Origin: the human T2T-CHM13v2.0 reference genome, Homo sapiens
Strand: one strand, 5' to 3'
Assembly (NCBI RefSeq): GCF_009914755.1
Contig: NC_060930.1
Length of the DNA: 64,000 bases
Shown here piece by piece: positions 50,880 to 53,618 of this stretch. The notes beneath the pieces are model-generated. The model had not been told where the DNA came from. It searched no databases and worked only from the letters and a program-made list of their open reading frames with translations. Positions within the stretch are counted from its first letter, which is position 1. Every line of letters starts with the position of its first letter. Made by a program: the position numbers and the translations under genes.

Positions 50880-51600
50880 GACGCGCGGGGTCGAGAGGCT
50901 GCGGGCTCGGCGGGCGGAGGGCGCATGGGAGCCTCTTGGCCCTGGACCTGCCCCTGCAATCCTTCCGCGGGATCTCTTGGACCCTCTCCAGGGTCCTGGC
51001 TCTGAGACGTTGCTAGAGGACAAATCCGCGGGATTTAGAGCGCGGCCAATGGGACAGCGGTGCCTGGCTGAGTGTCAGGCAAAACTAGCCAATAAACATG
51101 TAGTTTGGGCAAGGTGGGTCCGTCCCCTAACTCGGACCTTATAAAGCGCGCCCGCTGCTCCCACAAAGCCGGGCTGTCCCAGGCTGAGGCGGTTGCTCCC
51201 CTGCCGGGTGTGTTAGAAGCAAGTTAGAGGAAGAAGGTCTTGGGGACTACGGGCGCCACCGAGAACCCATACGAGGCAGCCGCCGACGGCGGGTCGCCGG
51301 GGCGGGGCCAGAACGGCGCCAAGGCCAACCAGAACGGCGGCAAGAACTAGGGGGACGCGGGGCAGGTGCTGTGGGAGTTGGCTGGACCTGTGGGATCGAC
51401 GTCTGCGCCGTCCAGGAGCCGCCCAGGGGAGAGAGCGGAGACTCGGGAGGAGGATGTGCGCTCCGACCCGGGCAAGGCTTCCCATCCCTCCCTTCCTCTT
51501 CTCTCCTTCCCTCCACCTGGGCTCGGAGTCAGGATCTGACCGCGGGCTCTGCCCAGGAAGACCGAGTTCCTTGAGAGCGACACCTAAGCGCCGGGGAAGA
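50880..51600 (+). promoter_or_regulatory. CpG-island promoter with two CCAAT boxes and a TATA box
   Basis: Dense CpGs; CCAAT 51046 and 51089; TATAAAG 51140-51146; inferred TSS ~51170. Confidence 0.85.
51210..51361 (+). pseudogene. HNRNPAB-like unprocessed pseudogene, first coding exon homolog
   Basis: VLEAS*RKKVLGTTGATENPYEAAADGGSPGRGQNGAKANQNGGKN*GDAG vs hnRNP A/B MSEAGEEQPMETTGATENGHEA...NQNGAEGDQINASKNEEDAG; ATG>GTG, two TAG stops, phase-2 donor now gcaggt. Confidence 0.85.
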
Positions 51601-51994
51601 CAGGGATAGAAGAGACGACAGCCCTTTGATAAGAGGGTTTTTAGACTAACTTCCACCTGTGACGAGTGCATGGGGCCTGCGCCCTGAGAGGTTGCCTTTC
51701 CTTTTCCTCTCCCACCCTGGGGGTTTGTGGTGATGTTAAGTTCTGTTAGGACCAAGGTGGATCTCAGTAAGGAGGTAGAGTAGATTTGTGAACAGCTGTC
51801 GGAGGTAGAATCTTTGCAGACCCAGAGTGGGTGGGTGTAGACACTTTGCCATGGGTGGTAGCTTTATTTGTAATCCTCCCAGTGAAAGCTTTGGGAAATC
51901 CAGCCCTCCCAAACTCTTGCCTTTCTTGTAAGACTTTCTAAGCGCATGGCTTTGTCGTAAGACTTCTCGTGGCCATGTGTCTCACCCTACCGTT

Positions 51995-52159
51995 CGTCTC
52001 ACCAATGAACCAGAGCTGGGATACCAGCAAAAAGGACCCAAAAGACTGTTTCACCACAATTGAAGAGGTCGTGGACCATCCCCCAAAATGAATCCCAACA
52101 CTGGAAGACCAAGAGGGTTGACGTTTGCTATCTTGAAAGCTGCAGCCCCCGTAGAGAAG
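51995..52159 (+). pseudogene. HNRNPAB-like pseudogene, RRM1 exon homolog
   Basis: [49 protein letters not shown]|gtaagc vs [50 protein letters not shown]; -1 frameshift near 52083; 5' edge eroded. Confidence 0.9.
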
Positions 52160-52899
52160 GTAAGCTGTGTATTCCATCAAAGGTCTGTGTGTGCAGGATT
52201 GCATTTCCAAGAGAAGGCATTCCTGGATCATGATCATTTTGTCTGAGCTGCATGTGGCCAAGTGCACTGGGGGAAGCAGAGTTTAGGAACTTGTTCCTGT
52301 ATGGATTAAGTGGGAAGTGAAAAGTATTAAATATATGGGCGGGAGTGGTCCAGGAAGGGGAGAGTGGACATTTAGTACCTGTTTGGGCCCCTGCACTAAA
52401 TGCTTCACATATAAGGATTAGAAAAACACCCAAAGATTCTTAGATAGGCATTTCAGTGCCATTTTACAGAAGGAAAAACTAAGATGCAGAGAGGATTAAG
52501 CAACTAGAAGAGACCACATAGTGAGTAAAGCGTGGAACAGCAAGGATTCCAACCCTGTAGCGCAGCTTTATGTCTGGAGGAAGCAAGTCTTAGACTGGGA
52601 CTGTCAGGCCAGGAAGAAAACTCAGAGCATGGACAAAAGGTTCAGAGGGAGTGAGGACCGATTTATATGTGTTGAGGTAAACCAGGTGGATTTCTGTTTT
52701 GGAGAAAATTGGGAAGTCAGGCTTAGGTAGAGGGTGGTGTGTTTGGAGGGGATAAAATATTTTGTGCACCTGTAGTTTGTGTATTCCACCTGTGGTAGAA
52801 TCTTGTGGCTCAGAAAGAAAGAACCTGCCTCGGGTAATGCTACTAAGAAATGCCAAACAGAATTAGAACCAGAGTCTACTTAACCCCCTTCTCAGAAGA

Positions 52900-53110
52900 A
52901 ATTGTCCAGGTTTTAGCACTGAAAGTCTTACATCTTGGGAAACTGAACCGTCCCAGTTTTAATGCTAAAAGTCCCTCATCCTGGGAAATCCCTTAGCTGT
53001 GGTTTTAGCACTGACAGTCCTGCTTCCTAGGAAACTCCTTACTTCTGGTTTTAGCCCTGAAAGTCCCCAAACCCCTTAGTCCTTGGCAAATCTGGATGAT
53101 TGATCCACTT
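52900..53110. repeat. 4 x 46-bp tandem array of a MER81/Blackjack subterminal unit
   Basis: (g/a)gtttta(g/a)..ct(g/a)a(a/c)agtc starts at 52909, 52955, 53001, 53047. Confidence 0.8.
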
Positions 53111-53128
53111 ACCCTTCTGTTGGAACAG

Positions 53129-53288
53129 ATCCTAGAGCAGAAGGAGCACAGGCTGGGCTGCCATAGCATGGACCCCCAAAAAGCCACTGTCATGAAGAAA
53201 TATCCTGTGAAGAAAATCTTTGCAGGGCACCTGAACTCCCAAAGCCACTGAGGAGAAGGTAAGGGAGTACTTTGGTGAGTTTGGGGAG
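53129..53288 (+). pseudogene. HNRNPAB-like pseudogene, RRM1/RRM2 junction exon homolog
   Basis: aacag|[53 protein letters not shown]|gtgaat vs [53 protein letters not shown]; 160 nt vs 159 expected (+1 frameshift). Confidence 0.92.
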
Positions 53289-53488
53289 GTGAATTTCTCC
53301 CCAGGATATGGTTTATGCTCCCCACCAGCCACCAGTGGATGCTTTTTTCTGTTTTCCTTGGCTGGTGGAGTTGTCAGTGGAGCTGCTCTCACCTCCTTTC
53401 TTGCCTTTGGAGGGCCGCCTTTTCTGAGTTCCCTTTAGGGCCTGAGCCAGGGGAAGGCATTGGCCCTGAGCTTTGCCTGTGTTTCCAG

Positions 53489-53618
53489 ATGGAGGCCATT
53501 GAACTTTCAGTGGATCCAAAGTCTAACAAAAGACAATGTCTTGTTTTCGTCACCCCCCAAAGAAGAGGAACCTGTGAGAAATATTCTGGAGAAATTTAAC
53601 ACCATCAGTGGAAGCAAG
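53489..53618 (+). pseudogene. HNRNPAB-like pseudogene, RRM2 exon homolog
   Basis: ttccag|[43 protein letters not shown]|gtgagg vs [44 protein letters not shown]. Confidence 0.92.

What the first reader, a model, noticed from the sequence alone, without database searches (positions are those of the whole stretch)
51210..53618. Hidden intron-containing HNRNPAB paralog underlying the lncRNA locus
Seen: four separate segments translate, across stops and frameshifts, into consecutive parts of hnRNP A/B. The third matches about 37 of 53 residues by eye against the recalled sequence. They end at donors after DAG, VEK, FGE and GSK, and two have intact AG acceptors. RNP motifs are degraded (RGFGFILF>[16 protein letters not shown]>QCLVFVTP). 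None appears as a recognisable protein in the ORF track. Known: hnRNP pseudogenes are nearly always processed retrocopies. Inference: this is a DNA-level duplicate or lost paralog of the hnRNP D/AB family, old enough to host ancient hAT relics in its introns, and possibly still coding in other mammals.
Basis: partly seen in the sequence, partly recalled or inferred. Interest (0 to 1): 0.85.

Follow-up and report, generated by a model that had tools for sequence, protein, structure and literature searches.

The report
Old intron-bearing HNRNPAB pseudogene under LOC730101
The human "lncRNA" gene LOC730101 is built on an old, broken, intron-containing partial copy of the RNA-binding-protein gene HNRNPAB that kept its parent's promoter and several splice sites but lost its coding capacity: an ordinary kind of object, but one that the papers searched on this RNA do not mention.

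Summary
Window 50939-53674 (+) is colinear with the gene on G000 contig C5, named hnRNP A/B by its best solved-structure match. The match covers the core promoter, exons 1-4, introns 1-3 and the first 56 nt of intron 4 (blastn E up to 2e-65). The introns themselves align and promoter sequence upstream of the transcription start is shared, so this is a DNA-level (unprocessed) duplicate, not a retrocopy.

In a tree of exons 2-4 it groups with HNRNPAB against HNRNPD and HNRNPDL (100/100). It also shares a SINE insertion in intron 2 with the parent. It is therefore a mammalian-age copy of HNRNPAB, not a lost deep paralogue.

The copy is dead: ATG→GTG, a premature TAG, one frameshift in each of exons 2-4, and no exons 5 onward. 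Pairwise dN/dS of 0.44 fits neutral drift since birth.

The RefSeq lncRNA reuses the ancestral exon-2 donor and the exon-3 and exon-4 acceptors. The 5' CpG island survives (o/e 0.72).

A 2020 proteomics paper noted an RRM hit in a 38-codon ORF here. No paper I found calls the locus an HNRNPAB pseudogene.

Verdict: real, a new member of a known kind, of modest interest.

The parts
50939..51152 (+). Inherited core promoter. Two CCAAT boxes (51046-51050, 51089-51093) and TTATAAAG (51139-51146) are colinear with the parent's.
   Evidence: Local alignment to L004 2588-2807, 142/234 identical. Core 51040-51152 vs 2700-2807, 75/115 identical, with GCGGCCAATGGGAC, AGCCAAT and TTATAAAG exact.
50930..51600 (.). 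Surviving CpG island over the promoter, pseudo-exon 1 and the start of pseudo-intron 1.
   Evidence: GC 0.644, CpG o/e 0.72, 50 CpGs, against 0.05-0.30 in the rest of the copy and 0.25 for the whole window. 14 of 22 aligned parent CpGs kept in exon 1, against 1 of 9 in exons 2-4.
51210..51361 (+). Pseudo-exon 1 (coding part). ATG->GTG, premature TAG at 51348-51350, 57 nt missing in the Ala/Gly-rich stretch, and donor GT->GC at 51362.
   Evidence: 113/149 aligned bases identical to L004 3129-3337.
51362..51995 (+). Pseudo-intron 1. It is retained in the RefSeq lncRNA because both of its splice sites are degraded.
   Evidence: 351/544 aligned bases identical to parent intron 1. Donor GC and lost acceptor AG. 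RefSeq exon 51141-52159 spans it (hub table).
51975..52091 (+). 38-codon small ORF, [38 protein letters not shown]. It starts in the former intron-1 3' end and continues in the ancestral frame of pseudo-exon 2.
   Evidence: Contains the published peptide [19 protein letters not shown] (PMC7585943, passages).
51996..52159 (+). Pseudo-exon 2 (first half of RRM1). RNP2 lost through a 9-nt deletion, a 1-nt deletion causes a frameshift, RNP1 degraded to RGLTFAIL. The donor is intact and used by the lncRNA.
   Evidence: 115/164 identical to L004 4133-4301.
52160..53128 (+). Pseudo-intron 2. Three blocks align to parent intron 2, and it carries about 300 nt of extra sequence.
   Evidence: blastn blocks 52160-52256, 52335-52383 and 52595-52774. 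437/671 aligned bases identical.
52449..52555 (+). SINE fragment (MIR-type, name recalled) shared with parent intron 2 at the homologous place.
   Evidence: Profile from 30 genomic copies: parent L004 4515-4745 E 4.3e-4; window 52449-52555 E 0.13, same strand and same part of the model. Three-way tally.
52909..53082 (+). Tandem array of four 46-bp units, absent from the parent and related to the short element at 53696-53815.
   Evidence: Gap in the parent.
53129..53288 (+). Pseudo-exon 3 (RRM1 end, linker, RRM2 start). 1-nt insertion near 53236. Acceptor intact and used. A new donor at 53258 is used by the lncRNA, and the ancestral donor at 53288 is intact but unused in RefSeq.
   Evidence: 127/159 identical to L004 5021-5179.
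53289..53488 (+). Pseudo-intron 3, 200 nt against 203 nt in the parent.
   Evidence: Inside the 586-column blastn block, E 2e-65. 106/197 identical overall, clearly better in its 3' third.
53489..53618 (+). Pseudo-exon 4 (rest of RRM2). 1-nt insertion, 3-nt deletion, RNP1 degraded to QCLVFVTP. Acceptor intact and used. Donor GT intact but not used in RefSeq.
   Evidence: 102/129 identical to L004 5383-5514.
53619..53674 (+). First 56 nt of pseudo-intron 4, the last stretch with parent homology.
   Evidence: block ends at 53674 / L004 5568; 22-nt match 53653-53674.
53696..53815 (+). Short MITE-like repeat that begins about 20 nt after the end of homology. The ends are approximate.
   Evidence: Alignment with three genomic relatives. 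The left end ATAGGGTAACCAACCATCC is shared with L021.
53920..55220 (+). Relic of an interspersed transposase-coding repeat, hAT-type by lead. It forms much of the lncRNA's last exon.
   Evidence: ORF 54876-55142 has 26 further genomic matches out of 66 candidates scored. DNA aligns to 5 copies at 67-74% identity. Atlas lead to DUF4371 / FAM200-ZBED5 RNase-like for a relative. No Pfam hit.
55873..55878 (+). AATAAA, ending 15 nt before the annotated lncRNA 3' end at 55893.
   Evidence: Sequence printed. Transcript end from the hub's table.

Best explanation
Window 50939-53674 is an unprocessed (DNA-level), partial and long-dead duplicate of the HNRNPAB gene. It holds the promoter, exons 1-4, introns 1-3 and the start of intron 4, copied from the chromosome-5 gene to chromosome 6 early in mammalian history, after a SINE had already inserted into HNRNPAB intron 2. 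By inference from divergence this was on the order of 100-200 million years ago.

The copy lacks exons 5 onward and has drifted neutrally as coding sequence. The start codon is lost, there is a premature stop, each of exons 2-4 has a frameshift, and both RNP1 motifs are degraded.

What stayed alive is the 5' end. The CCAAT/CCAAT/TATA promoter and its CpG island persist and drive the RefSeq lncRNA LOC730101. Its splicing pattern is largely inherited:
- Intron 1 is retained because its donor is now GC and its acceptor is gone.
- The ancestral exon-2 donor joins the ancestral exon-3 acceptor.
- A new donor, created by a substitution inside pseudo-exon 3, joins the ancestral exon-4 acceptor.
- The transcript then reads through the unused exon-4 donor into transposon-derived sequence, to an AATAAA at 55873.

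Shown here: homology, colinearity, lesions, family placement, CpG retention and splice-site states. Inferred: the age, the DNA-level mechanism of copying, and that the inherited promoter is what drives transcription.
For: - Six colinear blastn blocks against the C5 gene, including intron sequence, with E up to 2e-65.
- Per-segment identity: exons 0.70-0.80, introns 0.54-0.65.
- The parent's exon junctions were defined independently from its C12 retrocopy and from the sequence. They coincide with the window's pseudo-exon ends and with RefSeq lncRNA exon ends 52159, 53129 and 53489.
- Promoter homology upstream of the start site, with both CCAAT boxes and the TATA box exact.
- Tree: the copy groups with the C5 gene and its retrocopy against the C4 paralogues, 100/100. 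The copy's branch is 0.292 and the parent's 0.0017.
- Gene names rest on solved structures: 3s7r hnRNP A/B, 1hd0 hnRNP D0, 7zir hnRNP D-like.
- Shared SINE in intron 2.
- dN/dS 0.44 (bootstrap interval 0.28-0.67), dS 0.46, dN 0.205 over 196 of 223 codons.
- No exon 5, alternative exon or last exon anywhere in the 64-kb window.
- CpG o/e 0.72 in 50930-51600. Parent CpGs kept: 14 of 22 in exon 1, 1 of 9 in exons 2-4.
Against: - The annotated 5' end of NR_024405 (51141) lies inside the TATA-like motif (51139-51146), so that box may not be what positions initiation.
- Pfam does not recognise any single broken piece: 0 of 5 pieces hit RRM_1.
- The CBFNT model search of the genome did not list the window's exon 1 among its 5 matches out of 7 candidates scored.
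- The window's SINE hit is weak on its own (E 0.13). Neither a whole-genome DNA search, a local blastn nor a 3-mismatch motif scan confirmed it.
- Intron 3 is only 54% identical overall.
- The true extent of the original duplication cannot be fixed, because unconstrained flanks of this age would no longer align.
- The age rests on substitution rates recalled from memory and not measured here.
- No other species was examined.
Confidence: 0.85

Rival explanations
1. It is a unitary pseudogene of a once-functional mammalian HNRNPAB duplicate. On this view the copy encoded a working, perhaps shorter, two-RRM protein for a substantial time, is still intact in some mammals, and died only on the human lineage.
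For: - The lower bound of dN/dS (0.28) allows some early constraint.
- Five of seven ancestral splice-site dinucleotides are intact.
- Third codon positions are slightly less conserved than first and second positions (147/197 vs 154/197 and 163/197).
- The promoter CpG island is retained.
Against: - The point estimate of 0.44 is what a copy neutral from birth gives when the parent protein is frozen. The parent's branch is 0.0017 against 0.292 for the copy.
- The copy has no exons 5 onward, a lost ATG and lesions in every exon.
- The codon-position pattern is also expected from constraint on the parent alone.
Confidence: 0.07
2. It is a deep (early-vertebrate) paralogue of the hnRNP A/B-D family, a fourth family member lost in humans.
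For: - Intron positions are shared by all three family genes, so they do not exclude this.
- The exon-3 piece's best full-length match among solved structures was hnRNP D-like. That is because the hnRNP A/B entry 3s7r ends in the middle of the exon.
Against: - 100/100 support for grouping with HNRNPAB. Identity is 0.76 to HNRNPAB against 0.60 and 0.58 to the paralogues.
- Introns and promoter are still alignable to HNRNPAB.
- A SINE is shared at the same intron-2 position.
Confidence: 0.01
3. It is a gene fragment captured and moved by a DNA transposon (transduplication). On this view the HNRNPAB piece travelled from chromosome 5 to chromosome 6 inside or attached to the neighbouring transposase-coding element.
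For: - Homology to HNRNPAB stops at 53674. A short MITE-like repeat starts about 20 nt later, and a transposase relic follows at 53920-55220.
- Units of the same 46-bp repeat also sit inside pseudo-intron 2.
- Pairwise identity among the relic's copies (67-74%) is similar to that between the copy and its parent.
- Only about 3 kb was copied.
Against: - No terminal inverted repeats or target-site duplication bracket the HNRNPAB fragment. 20 inverted-repeat pairs were listed in 52700-56300 and none is convincing. The side upstream of 52700, where a left end would have to lie, was not searched.
- The two 46-bp arrays are in direct, not inverted, orientation.
- The MITE-like element looks like a separate small insertion.
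- Simple later insertion into an old intron explains everything.
Confidence: 0.04
4. It is a retrocopy of an unspliced, prematurely terminated HNRNPAB pre-mRNA: an RNA-mediated copy that happens to keep its introns.
For: The copy is short, starts near the 5' end of the gene and ends within intron 4, as a prematurely ended transcript would.
Against: - About 235 nt of homology lies upstream of the parent's inferred transcription start, including the CCAAT and TATA boxes. That is L004 2588-2823, with the retrocopy's 5' limit at 2824.
- No poly(A) tract follows 53674 (sequence).
Confidence: 0.03

Closest known systems
HNRNPAB (hnRNP A/B, CBF-A) gene on chromosome 5, the parent or sister copy
   Same: - Same promoter architecture (CCAAT, CCAAT, TATAAAG).
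- Same exon order and junctions for exons 1-4.
- Alignable introns 1-3, and the same SINE in intron 2.
- 76% nucleotide identity over exons 2-4.
   Different: - No start codon, a premature stop, and a frameshift in each of exons 2-4.
- RNP1 and RNP2 motifs degraded.
- About 256 nt of the 5' UTR and 57 nt of exon 1 missing.
- No exons 5 onward, so no Gly-rich C-terminal half.
Transcribed unprocessed (duplicated) pseudogenes annotated as lncRNAs. As a class this rests on my own knowledge. The textbook analogue, recalled and not checked here, is a lncRNA gene built on the remains of a decayed protein-coding gene, as proposed for Xist and Lnx3.
   Same: A decayed protein-coding gene copy whose promoter and some splice sites are reused to make a spliced, polyadenylated non-coding RNA.
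   Different: - Here the source is a partial duplicate whose parent is still intact elsewhere in the genome.
- Much of the last exon is transposon-derived.
- No function of the RNA was tested here. The published cancer-related roles were seen only as titles, abstract openings and passages.
Processed HNRNPAB and HNRNPD retrocopies in the same genome (C12:9998394-9998834 and C23:62469526-62470118)
   Same: Derived from the same gene family, and detected by the same searches.
   Different: - They are intron-less, with exons abutting.
- They are much younger: branch lengths 0.037 and 0.109 against 0.292.
- Their homology begins at the transcript start, not in the promoter.

Membership tests
Copy of the HNRNPAB gene (hnRNP A/B-D subfamily) | Significant sequence similarity to HNRNPAB exons in the correct order | tested here: met
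   Colinear blastn blocks, E 1.1e-11 to 2e-65. The exon-2 piece's best match is hnRNP A/B 3s7r.
Copy of the HNRNPAB gene (hnRNP A/B-D subfamily) | Closer to HNRNPAB than to HNRNPD or HNRNPDL | tested here: met
   Identity 0.761 against 0.596 and 0.581. Split supported 100/100.
Functional hnRNP A/B-type protein gene | Open reading frame with start codon, two RRMs with intact RNP1 and RNP2, and a Gly-rich C-terminal region | tested here: not met
   ATG->GTG, TAG in exon 1, frameshifts in exons 2-4, degraded RNP motifs. No exons 5 onward. No Pfam RRM_1 hit on any of 5 pieces.
Unprocessed (duplicated) pseudogene | Introns retained at the parental positions | tested here: met
   Parent junctions from the retrocopy and from sequence map onto 51361/51996, 52159/53129 and 53288/53489.
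Unprocessed (duplicated) pseudogene | Intron and promoter sequence homologous to the parent's | tested here: met
   Intron blocks. Intron identity 0.54-0.65. Shared SINE. Promoter 142/234 identical.
Unprocessed (duplicated) pseudogene | Disabling mutations, with neutral evolution of the coding part | tested here: met
   Lesions listed. dN/dS 0.44 (0.28-0.67), with about 0.5 expected for a neutral copy of a frozen parent.
Processed pseudogene (retrocopy) | Intron-less, starts at the transcript start, poly(A) tract at the 3' end | tested here: not met
   Introns present. Homology extends about 235 nt upstream of the inferred start. No A-tract after 53674.
Unitary pseudogene / lost deep paralogue | Functional orthologue at the syntenic place in other species, and no closer intact sister in the same genome | not testable with these tools
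   No other vertebrate genome is held. The second half of the feature is not met, since an intact sister (the C5 gene) exists.
lncRNA gene (LOC730101) | Spliced, polyadenylated transcript without a long ORF | tested here: inconclusive
   - Transcript models come from the hub's RefSeq table and were not tested here.
- Canonical GT/AG at all four annotated junctions, and an AATAAA that ends 15 nt before the annotated end.
- A 38-codon ORF with a published peptide exists.
hAT-superfamily transposon relic (neighbouring element 53920-55220) | Transposase homology, terminal inverted repeats and an 8-bp target duplication | tested here: inconclusive
   Dispersed family shown. Atlas lead to DUF4371 / FAM200-ZBED5 RNase-like for a relative 55% identical over 77 aa. 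No Pfam hit. Ends and target duplication not found.

The most novel reading that the evidence does not exclude
The 5' part of this ancient gene fragment has been kept by selection for over 100 million years as a working transcription unit. That would explain why the CpG island, the CCAAT/TATA promoter and three splice sites survive while the coding sequence decayed. On this reading its product acts in its own right, for example on HNRNPAB or on TMEM14A, whose start lies 2 kb beyond the transcript's end. The product would be either the RNA, which still shares about 76% identity with HNRNPAB mRNA over exons 2-4, or the 38-residue peptide that keeps the first helix region of RRM1. A bolder variant is that the fragment reached chromosome 6 by transposon-mediated capture.
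Probability: 0.15. Interest if true: 0.6.

Novelty: new member of a known kind. Interest (0 to 1): 0.35.

Why it matters
LOC730101 is treated as an 'uncharacterized lncRNA' in the literature searched. 72 papers hold the name, including functional studies in ovarian, prostate, lung and liver cancer.

Knowing that it is an old HNRNPAB duplicate matters in three ways:
1. **Practical.** Its exons keep 70-80% identity to HNRNPAB mRNA, with exact runs of up to 19 nt (alignment). Probes, primers, siRNAs and proposed microRNA-sponge or protein-binding sites could therefore be checked against the parent.
2. **Interpretive.** It explains the RRM domain hit on the reported small protein (PMC7585943). That peptide carries only a fragment of RRM1, without RNP1 or RNP2, so it cannot be a working RRM.
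3. **Evolutionary.** It is an example of a promoter CpG island outliving its gene by roughly 100 million years or more. It is also a rare intron-bearing pseudogene in a family whose other copies found in this genome are retrocopies.

None of this overturns current understanding.

Tried and rejected
- **Pfam on single pieces.** No RRM_1 or CBFNT hit for 5 pseudo-exon pieces. No transposase family for 8 ORFs of 54072-55362, nor for 2 ORFs of a better-preserved relative.
- **CBFNT model over the genome.** It found the three family genes and two retrocopies, but not the window's exon 1 (5 matches out of 7 candidates scored).
- **Direct confirmation of the SINE.** A whole-genome DNA search found only self. 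blastn against the window and all loci found only self. The recalled core motif with up to 3 mismatches had 0 matches in the window. Only the profile built from 30 of the 374 genomic copies worked.
- **Search for the missing 3' half.** blastn of parent 5515-10000 against the whole window gave only hits within parent 5980-6260, which I take to be an Alu (40 best of 129 hits inspected). A relaxed search with that stretch masked gave no colinear hit, best E 0.053 for 29 nt (25 best of 93 hits inspected). tblastn with the three C-terminal exon peptides gave only low-complexity Gly-rich matches.
- **Rfam.** No family at gathering score in 50500-57900.
- **Terminal inverted repeats around the repeat relic or the whole fragment.** 20 weak pairs listed, none convincing.
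- **Literature for a prior statement of the origin.**
  - LOC730101 + HNRNPAB: 1 paper, with the two names in unrelated table rows.
  - LOC730101 + pseudogene: 6 papers. In the three where I read the 'pseudogene' passages, the word refers to other genes or is general. In the other three I read only the LOC730101 passages, which list it as 'uncharacterized' or only cite a paper on it.
  - HNRNPAB + 'unprocessed pseudogene': 1 paper, listing only, not opened.
  - HNRNPAB + 'duplicated pseudogene': 0 papers.
  - ENSG00000216775: 5 papers. I opened 3 and none gives a biotype.
  - A clone-style gene name that I recalled: 0 papers, so it is probably misremembered.
  - LOC730101 + 'RNA recognition motif': 2 papers. 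One is the 2020 paper; the other is a 2026 review that I did not open.
- **Not attempted.** The large protein searches, because they carry no taxonomy or synteny and could not show whether an intact orthologue exists.

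
Full report
**1. The observation**

Stop-to-stop ORFs and direct translations give:
- ...[39 protein letters not shown]
- ...[27 protein letters not shown], then [25 protein letters not shown]
- [36 protein letters not shown], then [18 protein letters not shown]
- [23 protein letters not shown], then [20 protein letters not shown]

Against solved-structure sequences, the exon-2 piece's best match is hnRNP A/B (3s7r, E 7e-4), ahead of hnRNP D0. The exon-3 piece matches hnRNP D-like (7zir, E 5e-3) and the hnRNP A/B entry, which ends in the middle of that exon.

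In the window's own assembly, the best non-self match of the exon-3 piece is on contig C5 (61% identity, E 7.8e-7), followed by a place on C12.

**2. What the partner genes are**

- Exon 2 of the C5 gene has its best single-stretch match to hnRNP A/B (3s7r, 119 bits).
- One C4 gene (L025) has its best single-stretch match to hnRNP D0 (1hd0, 118 bits).
- The other C4 gene (L026) is identical to hnRNP D-like over 56 of 56 residues (7zir).
- The C12 place is an intron-less retrocopy of the C5 gene. Its blocks abut where the gene has introns.

I used that retrocopy, together with the splice-site sequence, to define the parent's junctions in L004 (= C5:178752001-178762000):
- exon 1 coding part 3129-3337
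- exon 2 4133-4301
- exon 3 5021-5179
- exon 4 5383-5514
- exon 5 7616-7733
- last coding exon from 8838

**3. DNA-level duplicate**

blastn of window 50001-57800 against L004 gives six colinear same-strand blocks:

| Window | L004 | Identity | E-value |
|---|---|---|---|
| 51241-51320 | 3157-3236 | 79% | 1.1e-11 |
| 51284-51369 | 3256-3345 | 78% | 2.6e-13 |
| 51959-52256 | 4096-4401 | 69% | 1.35e-29 |
| 52335-52383 | 4491-4539 | 78% | 1.3e-4 |
| 52595-52774 | 4778-4939 | 68% | 4.7e-10 |
| 53112-53674 | 5004-5568 | 70.6% over 586 columns | 2e-65 |

The third block runs about 100 nt into intron 2. The fourth and fifth lie wholly inside intron 2. The last covers exon 3, the whole of intron 3 (200 nt against 203 nt), exon 4 and 56 nt of intron 4.

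A global alignment gives these identities:
- exon 1: 113/149
- exon 2: 115/164
- exon 3: 127/159
- exon 4: 102/129
- intron 1: 351/544
- intron 2: 437/671
- intron 3: 106/197

The global aligner misplaced the promoter. A local alignment pairs window 50939-51152 with L004 2588-2807 (142/234 identical). In the core (75/115 identical) the motifs GCGGCCAATGGGAC, AGCCAAT and TTATAAAG are exact.

The parent's retrocopy begins at L004 2824. About 235 nt of shared sequence therefore lies upstream of the transcript. Together with the aligned introns and the absence of an A-tract after 53674, this excludes an ordinary retrocopy and argues against an unspliced-RNA retrocopy.

**4. Which family member, and how old**

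HNRNPAB, HNRNPD and HNRNPDL have identical exon boundaries for exons 2-4. Sequence does.
- Over exons 2-4 the copy is 76.1% identical to HNRNPAB, 59.6% to HNRNPD and 58.1% to HNRNPDL.
- The maximum-likelihood tree separates {copy, HNRNPAB, its retrocopy} from {HNRNPD, its X-linked retrocopy, HNRNPDL} with 100/100 support.
- Almost all the divergence is on the copy's branch: 0.292 substitutions per site against 0.0017 for the parent. For comparison, the two retrocopies have 0.037 and 0.109.

A block in intron 2 looked to me like a MIR SINE. That name is recalled and not given by any tool. Direct searches did not confirm it. However, the recalled 26-base core has 374 exact genomic copies against 0 for the reversed control. 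A profile built from 30 of them finds:
- five clear copies elsewhere in the window (E 2e-14 to 3e-7)
- the parent's intron 2 (L004 4515-4745, E 4.3e-4)
- the homologous window position on the same strand and the same part of the model (52449-52555, E 0.13 for the whole search space)

In the 89 comparable core positions, 52 are the same in the consensus and both copies, 5 are changes shared by the two copies, 15 are window-only, 11 are parent-only and 6 differ in all three.

So the SINE inserted before the duplication, and most of its decay happened afterwards. This is incompatible with an early-vertebrate paralogue.

From a per-lineage divergence of about 0.2-0.3 substitutions per site (dN 0.205, half of dS 0.23, ML branch 0.29), and mammalian neutral rates that I recall and did not measure, I infer an age on the order of 100-200 million years.

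**5. State of the coding sequence**

In the parent's frame:
- The start codon is GTG.
- Exon 1 lacks 57 nt and carries TAG at 51348.
- Exon 2 has lost RNP2 through a 9-nt deletion and has a 1-nt deletion.
- Exon 3 has a 1-nt insertion.
- Exon 4 has a 1-nt insertion and a 3-nt deletion.
- The RNP1 motifs read RGLTFAIL and QCLVFVTP.

Over 196 of 223 codons, dS = 0.46, dN = 0.205 and dN/dS = 0.44 (bootstrap 95% interval 0.28-0.67).

The parent protein has hardly changed, so a copy that was neutral from birth should give about 0.5. The data fit that, and allow only a short constrained phase at most.

Substitutions are 82 transitions to 49 transversions.

No trace of exon 5, the alternative Gly/Tyr-rich exon or the last exon exists anywhere in the 64-kb window. 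The copy is therefore truncated after exon 4, either from birth or by later loss.

**6. What still works**

The RefSeq lncRNA exons come from the hub's table: 51141-52159, 53129-53258 and 53489-55893. They map onto the ancestral gene as follows:
- **Intron 1 is retained.** Its donor is now GC (GCGGG|GCAGGT against the parent's GCGGG|GTAGGT) and its acceptor AG is gone.
- **The exon-1 end at 52159 is the ancestral exon-2 donor** (GAGAAG|GTAAGC).
- **53129 is the ancestral exon-3 acceptor.**
- **53258 is a new donor.** The parent's AAGATCAGG has become AAG|GTAAGG.
- **53489 is the ancestral exon-4 acceptor.**
- **The ancestral exon-3 and exon-4 donors are intact but unused in these models.**
- **The transcript ends 15 nt after an AATAAA** (55873-55878).

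The 5' region is still a CpG island. Positions 50930-51600 have GC 64% and CpG o/e 0.72, against 0.05-0.30 for the rest of the copy and 0.25 for the whole window.

Of the parent's aligned CpGs, 14 of 22 survive in exon 1. Only 1 of 9 survive in exons 2-4, where 6 of 9 have become TG or CA. In the promoter 5 of 20 survive.

I read this as long-term germline hypomethylation, meaning the promoter stayed active. That is an inference.

One discrepancy: the annotated 5' end (51141) lies inside the TATA-like motif (51139-51146), so initiation may be dispersed rather than TATA-directed.

**7. The small ORF**

A 38-codon ORF (51975-52091, [38 protein letters not shown]) starts in the former polypyrimidine/acceptor region of intron 1. 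It continues in the ancestral frame of exon 2 until the 1-nt deletion brings up a TGA.

PMC7585943 (passages seen) reports:
- an OpenProt 'alternative protein' of LOC730101 identified by the peptide [19 protein letters not shown]
- mass-spectrometry and ribosome-profiling support
- a conserved-domain hit to an RNA recognition motif (cd12757)

The peptide begins at residue 2 of this ORF. That fits removal of the initiator methionine before a small residue, which is my inference.

The ORF keeps only the segment homologous to [21 protein letters not shown] of RRM1. It has neither RNP2 nor RNP1, so it cannot be a working RRM.

Five ATGs lie upstream of it in the annotated transcript.

**8. The 3' neighbourhood**

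Homology stops at 53674.
- From about 53696 to 53815 there is a short element whose left end (ATAGGGTAACCAACCATCC) and internal 46-bp unit recur at three other genomic places.
- Four tandem copies of that unit form a parent-absent insertion in pseudo-intron 2 (52909-53082).
- From 53920 to 55220 the DNA aligns at 67-74% identity to five dispersed copies.
- Its ORF at 54876-55142 has 26 further genomic matches out of 66 candidates scored, most of them with stops.
- Pfam gives nothing.
- The protein atlas places a relative (55% identical over 77 residues) next to DUF4371 / FAM200-ZBED5 RNase-like clusters, by features (0.90-0.91) and by structure (TM about 0.5).

I found no inverted termini or target duplication that would make the HNRNPAB fragment part of a transposon.

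**9. What is in print**

72 papers hold 'LOC730101'. The ones I looked at treat it as an uncharacterized lncRNA.

PMC11655529 (passages) gives the Ensembl ID ENSG00000216775 / AL109918.1 and calls it predicted non-coding. In that paper 'hnRNP' and 'conserved' each occur 0 times.

Searches combining the name with HNRNPAB, pseudogene or RNA recognition motif, or combining HNRNPAB with unprocessed or duplicated pseudogene, found no statement of the origin. The only related remark is the domain hit in PMC7585943.

I could not consult GENCODE or pseudogene databases, where the locus may well be typed as an unprocessed pseudogene. I did not open any supplementary files.

**10. Verdict**

Its promoter CpG island and three inherited splice sites now serve the lncRNA LOC730101.

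The 'lost paralogue of the D/AB family' half is not supported. 'Still coding in other mammals' is untested and unlikely.

This is a new, well-documented member of a known kind (a transcribed unprocessed pseudogene). It is useful for people working on LOC730101 and a neat case of promoter survival, but it is not surprising to a specialist.

Noticed in passing
L005 3508-3963 (G000:C12:9998394-9998834 region): The HNRNPAB retrocopy on C12 has an unbroken frame of 215 aa across the end of the N-terminal domain and both RRMs. It is 94.7% identical to the parent over exons 2-4, with no stops. I did not look at whether it is expressed or constrained.
   Followed up: partly
L027 1350-1794 (G000:C23:62469526-62470118): An X-linked retrocopy of HNRNPD with stops. 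It is 90% identical to HNRNPD over exons 2-4, with a branch length of 0.109.
   Followed up: partly
window 27474-27657 (+), 61150-61347 (-), 60696-60883 (+), 49718-49890 (-), 26133-26277 (-): Five clear copies of the same SINE family (MIR-type, name recalled), found with the profile built here (E 2e-14 to 3e-7).
   Followed up: no
window 41500-43950: The Gly-rich exon-5 peptide of HNRNPAB gives many weak low-complexity tblastn matches here, inside the long stretch the hub lists as masked (41638-43948). This is probably a GC-rich tandem or simple repeat and is unrelated to the finding.
   Followed up: no
window 52909-53082 and 53696-53815; L020, L021, L022 around 1490-1580: A small repeat family with a 46-bp internal unit (GGTTTTAGCACTGAAAGTC...CCTGGGAAAC). 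In L021 and L022, by eye, a partial inverse of the left end lies about 110-125 bp downstream, as in a MITE. In the window the unit is amplified to four tandem copies inside pseudo-intron 2. I could not name the family.
   Followed up: partly
window 51153-51209 vs L004 2824-3128: The copy lacks about 256 nt of the parent's 305-nt 5' UTR (offset difference between the blocks). I cannot say whether this is a deletion in the copy or a later gain in the parent.
   Followed up: no
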